From Eledone cirrhosa (Eukaryota), in NCBI GenBank assembly GCA_964016885.1, contig OZ024741.1, positions 357,120,001 through 357,184,000 on the forward strand: DNA of 64,000 bases. Direction: 5' to 3'. The notes below the pieces were generated by a model, which had not been told where the DNA came from, did not search any database, and saw nothing but the letters and a program-made list of their open reading frames with translations. The translations under genes and the position numbers were made by a program. Of this stretch, positions 51,851 through 61,975 are shown piece by piece (position 1 is the first letter of the stretch; each line of letters starts with the position of its first letter).

Positions 51851-52328
51851 AAATGGAAAAAATGAAATTTCATTTCTCATTCTTAGTACGGCTGATACTT
51901 AAATATAAGTATGTATACGTACATAGATATATGTATACAGACGTACAGTAGTATGTATATATATATACATACAGGCACACATATATATATGTATGTATGG
52001 GTTTACCGAACGTTTATTATAATGCTCGGTTTGTTTGTAAACAAACACCCCGAATTATTAGCCGTACAGTGTTCGGCAACCATCGTTGCCATTTTGTTCA
52101 ACACTGACAAAGGAACGATAAACTAGTTTCTAGCTTATTAGCTGTCATCAGCACCGTATACCTTCCTCTCAGTTGATTGAACGTTTGAAAGTATATACTT
52201 TCCTTAAGAGTGAGAAATGAAATTTCATTTTTTCCATTTATCGTTTTCGGTACGCCCAGCCGACTAACTCACTCGATATGTAAATTAGGCTGTTCAGCCG
52301 TTAATATGCATAAGAAAAGTATATACTT
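51851..52328 (-). mobile_element. HHR-bearing non-coding retroelement (retrozyme/pLTR-like), copy 1 with inverted junction segment
   Basis: 51851-52204 is colinear with 61585-61910; 52205-52328 is an inverted piece that joins the unit's end to its start. Confidence 0.75.
52115..52157 (-). ncRNA. Type I minimal hammerhead ribozyme
   Basis: acggtg-CTGATGA-cagct aata agcta-GAAA-ctag-TT-tatcgt; palindromic ACTAGT stem III. Confidence 0.8.
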
Positions 52329-52496
52329 TACAGTGTAGGCTGGGTGCTTTTTTGCCGTGGCACCTCCATGACCACTTTGCAGTAGGAGGGTGTGGGGTCA
52401 TATTGCCTATATATACATATATATATATATATACATATATATATATATATATACATATATATATATATATATATATACATATATATATATATATTT

Positions 52497-52680
52497 TGGG
52501 AGCCCCTACATGGACACACTAGAAGAGGAAGACCAAGGTTAACGTATGTTGATGCCCTAAGGACAGACACTGGTCTGTTGGAGATGCAGGACATGGCAGC
52601 GATAATGAGGGACAGAGACCGCTGGAGAGAACTCGTCCATGGATCTCGGGAATTTTACCCGCCTTAGATAGATAGATAGA
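52497..52680 (+). mobile_element. Extreme 3' fragment of a third RTE-like LINE with (TAGA)n tail
   Basis: WEPLHGHTRRGRPRLTYVDAL...MRDRDRWR, stop directly followed by TAGA repeats; inside (TA)n. Confidence 0.8.
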
Positions 52681-52892
52681 TATATATATATATACATATA
52701 TATATATATATACATATATATATATATATATATATATATAAGTAAGATGTATGGTAGGACGTATGTGAATCGCGATGATCACGTCTGACTTACCAAATAT
52801 GTGACGGTAGCTAGTTAAGCTCTATGCGTATACGCAGAGCAGAAATATTAGTGAAAAAGAACAAAGGAACTATTATGACATTATAACAAGTT

Positions 52893-52947
52893 TATTGCCG
52901 ACAGCCGTTTCGTCCGACCCCATGGTGGGACTTATCAAGGCATATAA
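52893..52947 (-). ncRNA. Type I hammerhead ribozyme, U3-A8 core variant, in the Penelope-like 3' pLTR
   Basis: ttatatgcc-TTGATAA-gtcc c acc atgg ggt c ggac-GAAA-c ggct g-TC-ggcaataa; GUC triplet, stems I and II well paired. Confidence 0.82.
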
Positions 52948-53864
52948 CATGTGATTGCAAGATCATTGTTTACATCAACGTATCACTCAAGGCTAGCAGT
53001 TTGAAATTGTTGTATACATCAGCAACTCCGCTTTAAGGGGGGGGGGGGGGCCTCTTTTATATTAGTTGTCGGGGTCAGGGATTGAAGTTTAAAAATTAGA
53101 CAAAAATATATAATTCACGCATCAACATTAAACCAAGAGACTTGGGGTCCCGTAGAAGCACCTCAGAAAATCCCTCAATGAGTGCATAAAGCTTACAGGC
53201 TCCAATACACCTATTAGTCTAGAAGAAAATTAAGAGGCTAATAAAATAAGAAAATAAAAATATAAAGTTTCCCTAAAAAATATATAGAGTTCCTATGAAA
53301 TTTCTTCTAGAGAAAAAAAATTTTTTCGAAAGAAAAAAACCTTCTTCCCCCGAGATCACGTTTACAAAATTCAGAAAACTGAATTGAAAACTAGGTTGAA
53401 AGAAACTAATCAATTAGAGGTTAATTCAGAGAGCCTTCCATAAATCTCTCAGAAAAGGCCCCTTTACTATTTCCAATAGGAACTTCTTCCGAGAGACCCT
53501 TCGAAGAATTAAAATTTTAGAGAGCCTTTGAGGATAAATATAAAAACGAATTGAGGAAAATTATACATTAAAAGTTAAAAATTAAAAATTACGGTATTTG
53601 GGATATCCGAGGAATTTTCAAAGGGCTGCTTCAACAGATACAACTTAGGCATAATAGGTACAATAATCTAAGCAACTTAAGCAATTTAATTAGGGAGCAA
53701 TTCAAGGAGTTTATCAAGTTGGGCAAGATTAAAGAAAGTGGTAACTAAGAAAATACATAAGCAAAAAGACAATAATCATAAAATGTATCCTTAAGAAGGT
53801 ACAAGGTAGCTTCAGTGATCTAACCCTGTATTATCACAAAAAAACATTCCAAAATTATTGATAC

Positions 53865-54022
53865 AGGATTAAAATTATTACAAAATCATTACAAAATTAC
53901 CACAAAATCATTACAAAATTATCAAATCATCACAAAATTACCACAAAATCATTACAAAATTATCAAATTATCATAAAATTATCGCAAAATTATTACAAAA
54001 TTATCATAAAATTATTGCAAAA
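53865..54022. repeat. About 12-bp tandem repeat (CAAAATTATTA-like) in the PLE 3' region
   Basis: Repeated (c/t)aaaat(t/c)a(t/c)(t/c)a units. Confidence 0.85.
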
Positions 54023-58919: not shown

Positions 58920-59017
58920 GGAGGAAGAGGAGGAGAAGAAGGAGGAGGAGAAGGAGAAGGAGAAGAAGAAGAAGAAGAAGAAGAAGAAGAAGAAGAAGAA
59001 GAAGAAGAAGAAGAAGG
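58920..59017. repeat. (GAA)n/(GGA)n trinucleotide repeat
   Basis: Direct inspection. Confidence 0.95.
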
Positions 59018-60780
59018 ATACACTTCACTACATTACACAATAAACTTCAGTGGAATATCATTTTAGTGGGCGTTAATTTGTGGAGTCATTAGAGCATAGT
59101 ACAAAATGCCTTCACAGTATTTGTTCTGTGCTCTGAGTTCACATCCTGCTGAAATCAGCTATGCCTTTCATCCTTTCTGAGTTAGTGGTGGATTAGCAGG
59201 ATTATTAGAGTGTTGGGTGAAATGCTTTTGTGATATTTGTCCTGTGTCTTTGCATTCTGAGTTCTTGGCTAGTAGAATTAATATGTTGCCCAGTTTAATA
59301 TGAGGACATGGTCTTTGATGCCTTTAGTTGAGTTCATTCTGTCACAAATATTAATCTCTGGTTTCAGAATAATTACCTCATACCAGTACTGAAGGCCCTA
59401 AAACAATAAAGGATCATGTGCGTTGCCCATCCTTTCCTGACTAATTCATAACCAACATCTTTCAATGAAATGTCCCCATTCATTTAACTCTATCAGGTGT
59501 AAATAGGTAACATGGTGAGGTCTGTAGTTCAACACTGTACAATTAACACAAGAAGTTTATTTAAAGGTGAGGGTTCCATTAGCTTGTACAAGCATGACTA
59601 AATAGTTAAGAAGTTTGCTTCACACTCATAAGGTCTCTGGTTTGATCCCACTGTGTAGCATCTTGGGCAAATTTCATTTACATGATCTTTAAACCATGTA
59701 AGTGAAATTGTAATGATGGAAACTGTTTCGAAGACTATCAGATAGAGTGTACCTGTAATTCAAAGGGCTAGCTTTATTACTCATTGTGTCATTGAAAATT
59801 ACATTAGCCCTTTAGCATTTACATTACTCTATATTTACTATTATATATTCATGGTAAAGGCTTTATCTCACATAATTATCTCACATAATCTCAAGTCTAC
59901 GAGATTTTGATGATTATTGTTTATTTTAAGAACGATATCTTAATGTCCGTGTGAGCTGCTGGTTACAGCTGGTTTCAAAAAGGTGAAATAATTCTAGCCA
60001 GATACAGCTGGTTTAAATGCTAGAGGGTCAAGGGTATATATGTATCTGTGGAATGCTCAGCTACTTTCATGTTAATTTCATGCACTGATTGCACTGTTGA
60101 TCAAACAACTGGATCAATTATCATTGAGACCAACAGTGGTCCATTCCATTCCAACACTTAAAGGATGAAGGAAACAGAGAACTACTTAAGTGTATCATAC
60201 CTTAAAATCATACGTCATCATAATCATCATCATTTAACTCAAGTGTACAGTACCTTAAATGATTGTCATCATCATCATCATTATCATTTAGTGTCTTTTT
60301 TCCTGCTAGGAATGATTACATTAGTCATCACAGACCAAATCAGTGGCCAGTCAGAACCACTGACCTCTCAAATAGGCCAAGGAGTGAATCTCATTTACAT
60401 ATGTTCTCAGATTAAACAGGACACATTTTATTGTGGCACCCACACTAGAGACATTTATGTCTTTGAAACAACTGAAGAGTCCTCTCAATCTGTTTTCTTT
60501 TTGACAAATGGATATGTAATCATTAGGGCTGTCCTGATGTCTTAACAGGTTATGAAGGTTATGGAGGTTGTGATAGAGGTGGTAGAGGTGATAATCATCA
60601 TCATCATAAACATGGAAATGATACTCGATATATTTTATAGTACCAGTATGAATGCCCTTCAGTATTTAGTTTTATCCTTCAATGTTCTGATTTCAAACCA
60701 GTTGGAACTACTTTTGCCTTTCACCTCACTAAGGTCGATAAATTAAGTTATGTACAGACTTCTATTCAATTGAGTCTACC

Positions 60781-60851
60781 ACCCCAGTGGTTCAGTGATA
60801 GAATGCTTGTCTGCCACTTGAGTGACCTGGGTTCAATTCCCAGCTGATGCA
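60781..60851 (+). pseudogene. tRNA-Gly(GCC) pseudogene
   Basis: ACCCCAGTGGTTCAGTGATAGAATGCTTGTCTGCCACTTGAGTGACCTGGGTTCAATTCCCAGCTGATGCA aligns by eye to metazoan tRNA-Gly-GCC; acceptor stem broken, CpG-type substitutions, T-rich run afterwards. Confidence 0.75.
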
Positions 60852-60867
60852 TCTTTATTTTATGTGA

Positions 60868-61150
60868 GAGCGCATGGCCTAGTAGTAAGGGTGTTGGACT
60901 TATGATCATAATGTTGTGGGTTCAATTCCTGGGCTGGGTTGTGTCTTGTGTTCTTGAGCAAAACACTTTATTTCACATTGCTCCAGTATACTCAGCTGAA
61001 AATGAGTACCAGCAATAGCTGGGAGTTTAACCCTGCAATGGAATAGCATCCTGTTCAAGAGGCAATCTTGTATTTATGGTCACTTCACACCATAAAATTG
61101 GGAAAAGCACCGACCTGACAAACCTCTTGGCTTGAGACAGACTTTAGACT
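60868..61150 (+). mobile_element. tRNA-derived SINE with CTCAGCTGAAAATGAGTACC central motif (Deu/Nin-like, from recall)
   Basis: TGGCCTAGTAG A-box, GGTTCAATTCC B-box, (ACTTAG)-type tail. Confidence 0.7.
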
Positions 61151-61584
61151 TAGACTCTGCTCTACAAATTTGTAACTTTGTGTCAATGTAAAGAATCAAT
61201 AGTTGGTTAGCCTAATTGCATTGTCAGACTAGAATGTTATTACCTAACTTAACTGCTCAAACTACTTTTTAATTAGGTATTTTAATTTTCATGTATTACC
61301 CCGTCAACATGGATTAATAACAAAAATTAAATTTAACCTGCTAGCAATTTGGATTAATTTACAATGCTTTATTCCTTCAACAAGATATACAGTATAGATG
61401 ATGTGATGAAACTGAAACTTCAAAGTCACTGCCACATTTCTAATGAGAAAATAACTCTCCACACTCTACCTACAAGTATTGAGTTCTATTTCAGTTAATG
61501 TTTGAATATTTTAAATACCATGATATTTTGAACATATGTGTGCATTTGTGTGTTGGTAAATGTTTATACGTGTGTATAAGTATA

Positions 61585-61975
61585 ACGGAAAAAATGAAAC
61601 AAAATTTCATTTCTCACTCTTAGTACGGCTGTTACTTAAATATAAGTATTCTCTATCGTACAGTATATATATATACATACATGCACACATATATATATGT
61701 ACGTATGGATTCACCGAACATTTATTATAATGCTCAGTGTGTTTGTAAACAAACATCCCGAATTAAGCCGTACAGTGTCTAGCAACCATCGTTGCTCATT
61801 TGTTCAACACTGACAAAGGAACGCTGTACTAGTTTCAAGCTTATTAGCTATCGTCAGCAACGTATACCTTCCTGCCAGATGATTGAACATCTGAAAGTAT
61901 ATACTTTCCTTATGCATATTAACGGCTGAGCAGCCTAATTTGCATATCGAATGAGTTAATCGGCCGGGGTACCGT
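61585..61975 (-). mobile_element. HHR-bearing non-coding retroelement (retrozyme/pLTR-like), copy 2, about 390-nt monomer
   Basis: Colinear homolog of the 51851-52328 island; flanked by TA/TG microsatellite. Confidence 0.75.
61821..61863 (-). ncRNA. Type I minimal hammerhead ribozyme
   Basis: acgttg-CTGACGA-tagct aata agctt-GAAA-ctag-TA-cagcgt; 6-bp stem I, GUA triplet. Confidence 0.85.

What the first reader, a model, noticed from the sequence alone, without database searches (positions are those of the whole stretch)
51851..61975. About 390-nt HHR unit with an end-to-start junction: retrozyme-like tandem or circular template
Seen: two copies (51851-52328, 61585-61975) carry the same minimal HHR with differing but still paired stem I (acggtg/tatcgt versus acgttg/cagcgt) and palindromic ACTAGT stem III. 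The inverted segment 52205-52328, reverse-complemented, reads from the right end of the 61585 unit (..GGCTGGGCGTACCG-AAAACG) straight into its left end (ATAAATGGAAAAAATGAAATTTCATTTCTCACTCTT), so the template contained a head-to-tail junction. No ORF is present. Established: metazoan non-LTR retrozymes are tandem units of a few hundred nt with a type I HHR that yield circular RNAs. Inference: a retrozyme family spreading through a circular or multimeric RNA, plausibly copied by the PLE machinery.
Basis: partly seen in the sequence, partly recalled or inferred. Interest (0 to 1): 0.85.

Follow-up and report, generated by a model that had tools for sequence, protein, structure and literature searches.

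The report
Self-cutting RNA parasite of Penelope transposons
A 430-base non-coding repeat with a predicted self-cutting ribozyme occurs thousands of times in this animal genome and its copies end at two fixed points in TA repeats, so it is likely an RNA parasite copied, possibly from a circle, by Penelope-type transposons.

Summary
The two window copies are separate insertions of a high-copy family (5,949 exact ribozyme matches; 1,255 exact 'junction' matches). The true unit is about 429 nt, not 390. The hammerhead is a canonical type I with compensatory pairing across sister families, not a minimal one. The 'junction' is no ligation scar: it is a fixed internal end point, 275 nt after the predicted cut, which is read through in tandem copies.

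Copies end at positions 275 or 216, in (TA)n. In head-to-head insertions with both ends at these sites, 55 of 56 use one of each. This is the Penelope-like (PLE) 'tail' signature, so a PLE very likely copies the RNA. Arms run through the ribozyme cut without a scar, so the template is a circle or an uncut multimer; I could not separate the two, and expression is untested. Several insertions are hybrids with Hydra-clade PLEs, but they are not enriched over control (p=0.26). No sampled PLE shares the unit's sequence.

Verdict: a new member of the animal non-LTR retrozymes, with unusually direct genomic evidence for PLE mobilisation.

The parts
51849..52206 (-). Copy 1 main arm (subfamily C): monomer positions 344-429 then 1-275; 3' end at the long end point (275) in (TA)n
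52115..52157 (-). Type I hammerhead of copy 1, core 52151-52121; predicted cut between 52121 and 52120 (after GUU)
   Evidence: cut site inferred from the hammerhead consensus
51849..51904 (-). 'Tail' of copy 1: the stretch between the two fixed end points (monomer 217-275)
   Evidence: read against the end points
52205..52329 (+).
51823..51840 (+). 18-nt stub ending at the long end point, facing copy 1 tail-to-tail across a TA run (44-bp palindrome 51823-51866)
61582..61974 (-). Copy 2 main arm (subfamily A): monomer 282-429 then 1-275, with a deletion of about 30 nt in the TA-rich hairpin
61821..61863 (-). Type I hammerhead of copy 2, core 61857-61827; predicted cut between 61827 and 61826 (after GUA); U-U mismatch at the base of helix II
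61582..61641 (-). 'Tail' of copy 2 (monomer 217-275)
   Evidence: read
61974..62008 (+). Inverted stub of copy 2: monomer 181-216, ending at the short end point (216)
62009..62058 (.). (TA)n microsatellite flanking the short end point; the likely target

Best explanation
This is a 429-nt non-coding tandem repeat with a predicted self-cleaving type I hammerhead, whose copies end at two fixed internal points in (TA)n and were likely reverse-transcribed by a Penelope-like element, probably of the Hydra clade and probably from a re-ligated RNA circle. Steps: (1) Tandem copies are transcribed (inferred). (2) The hammerhead cuts out unit-length RNA, probably as a dimer through the palindromic helix III; a long stem holds the two ends together and a host ligase closes the circle (inferred from other animal retrozymes, PMC7229834). 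(3) The PLE protein nicks both strands of a (TA)n target and primes cDNA at position 275 on one strand and at 216 on the other. The fixed ends and their one-of-each pairing are shown; that they are RT start sites follows from PMC11167929. (4) Each cDNA runs a variable distance, often through the ribozyme site and beyond one turn (shown), and the two 5' ends are joined head-to-head; other insertions show one arm only. (5) Some insertions later grow into satellite arrays at the DNA level (inferred from array-private variants and higher-order periods).
For: Ends: 135 of 160 arms of 90 nt or more, in loci chosen without regard to ends, stop in the two end windows, which cover 53 of 429 positions (48 of 58; 87 of 102). 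Genome-wide there are 5,054 exact long ends (control 0) and 3,199 short ends (control 149) running into TA. Head-to-head pairs with both ends canonical: 55 long/short, 1 short/short, 0 long/long (one duplicated locus counted twice; 14 of all the pairs scored come from loci chosen for a long end). A sister family of 466-467 nt (68% identical over 249 columns) has the same layout and the homologous ends, 302-304 and 229-234. Ribozyme and flanking stem: 91.6% of cells paired, 14 of 29 pairs with changes on both sides, slid controls 32-48% (14 related rows, about six lineages, so few independent events). The circular monomer folds at z = -6.8 against 25 shuffles. Read-through: of 30 loci chosen for a long end, 12 arms pass the cut, 2 stop 5 and 17 nt short of it and 16 stop earlier; no inserted bases at the cut in 33 + 47 dispersed alignments. 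The two arms together exceed one unit in 27 of 31 pairs, so a single linear monomer cannot be the template. Helper supply: 7,353 matches to the Hydra CxCx5C linker, and Neptune- and Poseidon-type genes. Hybrids: L256 joins a long-ended retrozyme arm head-to-head to a short-ended Hydra arm; L019 joins a long-ended Hydra arm, 2.3 retrozyme turns and a Neptune 3' UTR that I read as short-ended. Identified PLE sequence at non-canonical 3' ends is same-sense in 5 of 5 (L019, L037, L230, L312, L332).
Against: Circle versus uncut multimer is not resolved. In the one PLE studied in vitro, ribozyme mutants insert normally and unprocessed RNA is the main template (PMC11167929). Within-locus sharing of variants (0.79 same-sense, 0.72 inverted, 0.25 random) fits either template, and locus-private shared alleles are few (3 of 98 and 6 of 113). 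Hydra joints are not enriched: 6 of 107 non-canonical ends against 10 of 310 distal flanks, Fisher p = 0.26. L332 is short/short. Two joints to unidentified hammerhead repeats (L254, L316) are antisense and two (L252, L286) are sense (read by eye). No sampled PLE shares terminal sequence with the unit. The two commonest subfamilies have a U-U mismatch at the base of helix II, and that column is paired in only 5 of 14 rows. Rfam gives no hammerhead hit for this family. In one search, 7 of 102 arms were scored with 5' ends at positions 1-8; my mapping collapses nearby ends onto those positions and a base-level check was not completed, so a modest pile-up at the cut is not excluded.
Confidence: 0.65

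Rival explanations
1. Same non-autonomous PLE, but the template is an uncut multimeric read-through transcript; circles, if made, are a by-product.
For: Ribozyme cleavage is dispensable for insertion in vitro (PMC11167929). Dimers to long arrays exist. Weak helix II in subfamilies A and B. Read-through without a scar fits equally.
Against: The catalytic core is nearly invariant and the stems covary across families 68% alike in an RNA with no ORF; a cut without re-ligation would yield products lacking the ribozyme's 5' half (inference). The 42-unit array carries four near-fixed variants (42-43 of 42-43 units) seen in 0-1 of 100-136 dispersed segments, so that array is not the master. No shared 5' flank among 48 single-orientation insertions.
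Confidence: 0.3
2. The helper is a Neptune-type or several PLE clades rather than Hydra alone; the RNA is recognised by shape.
For: Neptune-type elements here also end in (TA)n, one with two ends about 60 nt apart (read by eye). L019 contains a Neptune 3' UTR. Hydra coding sequence is also the commonest PLE in control flanks (13 Hydra, 2 Neptune, 2 Poseidon of 324).
Against: 7 of the 8 identified PLE joints in the 162 retrozyme-chosen loci are Hydra. Hydra elements are described with canonical hammerheads and (TA)n targets (PMC8557442, section 11).
Confidence: 0.3
3. The unit is only the pseudo-LTR of a coding PLE, seen as truncated copies.
For: Same tail and inverted-arm anatomy as coding PLEs; Xenopus retrozymes resemble pLTRs (bioRxiv 10.64898/2026.07.22.740005). 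Only a sample of PLE loci was examined.
Against: Past position 275 the sequence returns to its own unit (1,255 exact matches). All 30 loci chosen for the long end have family sequence upstream and none leads into a shared ORF. Pure arrays exist.
Confidence: 0.04
4. A satellite DNA spread by DNA-level mechanisms, or a SINE copied by the abundant RTE/LINE machinery with twin priming.
For: Long arrays with higher-order periods exist. Some ends abut LINE-like sequence, including window copy 1.
Against: Two fixed internal ends, one per arm, and RNA-level covariation are not expected of DNA spreading. No poly(A) or RTE-type tail. The inverted arm starts at a fixed site, whereas LINE twin priming uses variable sites (recalled).
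Confidence: 0.03

Closest known systems
Animal non-LTR retrozymes (Cervera and de la Pena 2020, PMC7229834; mussel 350-390 nt, axolotl 330/350 nt)
   Same: Non-coding tandem unit of a few hundred nt, one canonical type I hammerhead per unit, highly self-paired predicted circle, no LTR; the U-U at the base of helix II has a precedent in axolotl HHR_Amex2.
   Different: Circles and cleavage were shown there and are untested here. That paper names PLEs only as a strong candidate helper; here the insertions carry the PLE tail, inverted arms and PLE hybrids.
Retrozymes as non-autonomous PLE derivatives (Li, Clavereau, Pollet 2026, bioRxiv 10.64898/2026.07.22.740005)
   Same: Same conclusion that PLEs mobilise retrozymes; monomers, dimers and multimers coexist.
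   Different: Their evidence is co-occurrence and pLTR similarity in Xenopus. Here no pLTR similarity was found and the evidence is insertion anatomy.
Coding EN+ PLEs: Poseidon PAc (PMC11167929), Adineta Penelope (PMC3846280), Hydra clade (PMC8557442)
   Same: Partial tandems, inverted 5'-truncated copy, tail at one end, two internal RT start sites, AT-rich or (TA)n targets.
   Different: No ORF. The tail is 59 nt against 30-40 nt. The two arms use opposite start sites, whereas PAc in vitro showed no strand difference in start site.
MRC1 and other non-autonomous Chlamys PLEs of Chlamydomonas (PMC8557442)
   Same: Non-autonomous, multicopy head-to-tail insertions.
   Different: Those generally resemble an autonomous family at the 3' end; the abstract says these clades lack canonical hammerheads.

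Membership tests
Animal non-LTR retrozyme | Tandem repeats of 150-450 bp with a hammerhead in at least two consecutive units | tested here: met
   415-432 nt in 9 of 11 tandem intervals; arrays with 43 and 30 ribozyme motifs in 20 kb each
Animal non-LTR retrozyme | Canonical type I hammerhead (6-bp helix I, 4-bp helix II, short palindromic helix III) | tested here: met
   Helix I 100% paired with 3 of 6 pairs changed on both sides; helix II 82%; definition from PMC4209133
Animal non-LTR retrozyme | Match to a curated hammerhead model | tested here: inconclusive
   No Rfam hit for this family; the sister family hits Hammerhead_HH9 at E 6e-7, below the gathering score
Animal non-LTR retrozyme | No coding capacity, no LTRs | tested here: met
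   No stop-to-stop ORF of 90 aa or more in the window units; ends are internal points, not LTRs; PBS and PPT not searched
Animal non-LTR retrozyme | Highly self-paired monomer | tested here: met
   Circular fold -131.5 kcal/mol, z -6.8; antisense z -4.3; sister family z -11.5 (25 shuffles each)
Animal non-LTR retrozyme | Self-cleavage in vitro | not testable with these tools
   Needs a transcription assay; 8 of 9 Xenopus dimers did not cleave
Animal non-LTR retrozyme | Expressed as circular RNA | not testable with these tools
   Needs RNA from this species
Animal non-LTR retrozyme | Target-site duplication longer than 4 bp when present | tested here: inconclusive
   Canonical ends lie in (TA)n, which hides any duplication
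Non-autonomous Penelope-like element | Partial tandems plus an inverted 5'-truncated copy | tested here: met
   48 head-to-head pairs in 99 loci, 42 in 65 loci
Non-autonomous Penelope-like element | Tail at one end, i.e. two fixed RT start sites | tested here: met
   Ends at 275 and 216; 55 long/short, 1 short/short, 0 long/long
Non-autonomous Penelope-like element | Microsatellite target | tested here: met
   29 of 38 canonical ends followed by TA against 3 of 34 other ends
Non-autonomous Penelope-like element | Sequence similarity to the pLTR or 3' end of an autonomous family | tested here: inconclusive
   None in 40 Hydra-chosen and 50 GIY-YIG-chosen stretches; a small sample of more than 7,000 sites
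Minimal PLE hammerhead (Cervera and de la Pena 2014) | No helix III; in Schistosoma, helix II 7-8 bp and helix I 4-5 bp | tested here: not met
   Helix I 6 bp, helix II 4 bp, helix III present
pLTR of a coding PLE | Tail continues into an RT-EN ORF | tested here: not met
   Tail continues into the unit itself

The most novel reading that the evidence does not exclude
A hammerhead-made circular non-coding RNA is the direct rolling template of Hydra-clade Penelope proteins, which prime the two target strands at two obligately different sites 59 nt apart, recognise the RNA by shape rather than sequence, and mix it with their own and other clades' RNAs in single hybrid insertions.
Probability: 0.35. 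Interest if true: 0.75.

Novelty: new member of a known kind. Interest (0 to 1): 0.5.

Why it matters
Which reverse transcriptase spreads animal retrozymes, and whether the circle is the template, are stated as open in PMC7229834 and in the 2026 preprint. This family gives a 429-nt substrate with mapped end points, named candidate helpers in the same genome and thousands of insertions, so both questions become directly testable. The near-strict long/short pairing of the two arms is also a constraint on how PLEs integrate; the papers read describe it only as a tail often present at one end. The class itself is known.

Tried and rejected
Expression: no RNA holder listed, and the one guessed RNA run laid 0 contigs; this says nothing for or against expression. 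Rfam at gathering score: only two tRNA-like hits in the window. Parent PLE: no terminal similarity in the sampled Hydra, Neptune and Poseidon stretches; a search for other helix II variants with the same helix III returned 212 matches, the listed ones mostly mutants of the two families. Circle-versus-multimer tests by within-locus divergence (3.4% same-sense, 4.2% inverted, 5.2-5.4% median between loci, 2.1-2.2% nearest), allele sharing and sharing of a chosen CpG variant (6 of 31 same-sense, 1 of 33 inverted) did not discriminate. A ligation scar at the cut was looked for and not found. Enrichment of Hydra joints was not significant. Pfam found no family in the window's PLE frames. Host group: exact look-up and a kinase search gave no close relative, so the host is an animal of undetermined group; a cephalopod is my guess from recalled genome features, not a result. 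Earlier scan notes: none. Rows dropped before counts: overlapping or duplicated loci, array-internal loci, six loci without a family hit at the centre, arms touching a locus edge, and monomer columns 112-200 (TA-rich hairpin) in the divergence tests. A base-level map of 5' ends around the cut was not completed.
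Full report
OBSERVATION. The two copies are real and 81% identical over 370 columns. Each has a hammerhead core on the minus strand (52151-52121; 61857-61827), so the RNA reads right to left. In the own genome (3.0 Gb, 1,796 contigs) the 34-nt ribozyme stretch matches exactly 5,949 times and the 28-nt junction 1,255 times, with reversed controls 0. Exact counts are lower bounds; with about 3% divergence the true number is probably of order ten thousand (inference).

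THE UNIT. Between successive predicted cuts the unit is about 429 nt. Two arrays of about 18 and 16 kb were read; the first runs past the fetched stretch. At least four subfamilies occur, and a sister family of 466-467 nt is 68% identical over 249 columns and accounts for most listed matches of a pattern with 11,106 hits. No ORF of 90 aa or more lies in the window units.

THE RIBOZYME. Fourteen natural copies aligned without gaps. A structure with a 6-bp helix I, a 4-bp helix II with a six-base loop, a short palindromic helix III and a long outer stem has 91.6% of cells paired and 14 of 29 pairs changed on both sides, against 32-48% paired in slid controls. The rows are related, so these are few independent events, and the structure was drawn from my own folds. 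The layout is the canonical type I of PMC4209133, not the minimal form. The outer stem pairs the start of the monomer with its end; the circular monomer folds at z -6.8. Against activity: subfamilies A and B have U-U at the base of helix II (as has the weakly active axolotl HHR_Amex2), and Rfam does not recognise this family.

INSERTION ANATOMY. This is the decisive evidence. In loci chosen by motifs near the ribozyme, 135 of 160 arms of 90 nt or more end in windows around positions 275 or 216 (254-282 and 199-222), mostly running into (TA)n (29 of 38 against 3 of 34 for other ends). Genome-wide there are 5,054 exact long ends and 3,199 short ends (controls 0 and 149). 5' ends are scattered. 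Many insertions have two arms joined 5' to 5'. Of 90 such pairs, 55 were long/short, 1 short/short, 0 long/long, 32 had one non-canonical end and 2 had two. Window copy 2 is such a pair; copy 1 has a long end and a non-canonical one. The sister family ends at the homologous places. PLEs are described with partial tandems, an inverted 5'-truncated copy and a tail at one end (PMC8557442, PMC3846280), and the tail was traced to two internal RT start sites (PMC11167929). The match is complete except that the tail is 59 nt.

TEMPLATE. A linear monomer cut at the ribozyme would give at most 275 nt from the long site. Of 30 loci chosen for a long end, 12 arms pass the cut, 2 stop just short and 16 stop earlier. 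There are no inserted bases at the cut, and the two arms exceed one unit in 27 of 31 pairs. The template is therefore a ligated circle or an uncut multimer. For the circle: a conserved ribozyme in a non-coding RNA, the end-joining stem, circles shown for coral, mussel and axolotl retrozymes, and one long array excluded as master. For the multimer: cleavage is dispensable for PAc insertion in vitro. Three variant-sharing tests did not decide, and a modest excess of 5' ends at the cut is not excluded. I put the circle at about 0.6.

HELPER. The genome holds many Hydra-type elements (7,353 linker matches; motif from PMC8557442 section 11), and Neptune- and Poseidon-type genes (clade names assigned by me from linker motifs). 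A broken Hydra-type copy lies 400 bases from copy 1. None of the sampled elements shares terminal sequence with the unit. In 162 retrozyme-chosen loci, seven have Hydra sequence joined without a TA run and one of them also a Neptune 3' UTR; L037, found from the Hydra side, is another. L256 and L019 keep the long/short rule across families; L332 does not. Frequency is not above a control of distal flanks (p = 0.26), so later deletions between neighbours remain possible. Hydra is the best guess at about 0.6.

COMPARISON AND NOVELTY. It works like, and by every feature testable here is, an animal non-LTR retrozyme; cleavage and circular RNA are untested. It also meets the structural features of a non-autonomous PLE, without a found parent. 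That retrozymes are PLE-mobilised has been proposed (PMC7229834) and argued from co-occurrence and pLTR similarity (bioRxiv 10.64898/2026.07.22.740005). Six searches of the open-access library turned up no description of tail-bearing inverted retrozyme insertions or of retrozyme-PLE hybrids; subscription journals and Repbase or Dfam entries were not searchable, and supplements were not opened (those of the preprint are closed) and may bear on this.

WHAT I READ. The 2026 preprint: parts 1-3 of 5. PMC11167929: parts 1-2 of 4. PMC7229834: parts 2-4 of 6. PMC8557442: passages and section 11. PMC4209133: part 1 of 4. PMC3846280: passages. LINE twin priming and the host-group guess are recalled.

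VERDICT. Interest 0.5, because the anatomy makes two open questions directly testable.

Noticed in passing
window 52740-57697, minus strand: 5'-truncated Hydra-type PLE between TA runs: RT frame 55896-57680, frameshifted EN frame 55361-55981 with the CxCx5C linker, long 3' region and a decayed hammerhead near 52893-52945. Not shown to be the helper.
   Followed up: partly
window 2490-2532 (-) and 2648-2690 (+): Inverted pair of a different hammerhead-like motif with a TA-palindromic helix III, inside the 3.5-kb TA array; similar motifs in L051 and L054.
   Followed up: no
window 626-653 (-), 8182-8209 (+), 40309-40358 (-), 63908-63956 (+): Further hammerhead-like cores; the first belongs to a short repeat that ends in TA about 135 nt later in L045, L046, L049. 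The genome seems to hold many hammerhead repeat families.
   Followed up: no
L122, L125-L144 (G000:C1:5738-5752 kb): Sister retrozyme family of 466-469 nt with an array of about 30 units, a perfect helix II and units identical within L122; probably younger and a better substrate for assays.
   Followed up: partly
L245 (G000:C1:133719637-133727922): Three-part hybrid: Hydra arm, 2.3 retrozyme turns, Neptune 3' UTR, flanked by TA at both outer ends.
   Followed up: yes
L075 (G000:C1:19313-19317 kb), L208:6395-9381, G000:C1:96993-97039 kb: Arrays with dimer or higher-order periods, a sign of DNA-level amplification after insertion.
   Followed up: partly
L010, L063, L082, L103: Arms that are mosaics of subfamilies A and B, or pair an A arm with a B arm; template switching, intermediates or gene conversion.
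   Followed up: no
runs X6 and X7 laid on L003:1750-2750: Two runs labelled as other organisms hold pieces of the family (14 and 12 contigs laid), so relatives probably exist beyond this genome.
   Followed up: partly
window 9314-13672, minus strand: Single 1,452-aa frame with a DYRK2-like kinase domain behind a long low-complexity region.
   Followed up: partly
window 36191-36261 (-), 60781-60851 (+); 38590-39251: Two tRNA-like matches, probably SINE heads, and a 35-nt minisatellite of 19 copies.
   Followed up: no
L158, L156 versus L038, L039, L157, L159: A Hydra family also shows two 3' ends, about 87 nt apart, so the long/short rule can be tested on the coding elements too.
   Followed up: partly
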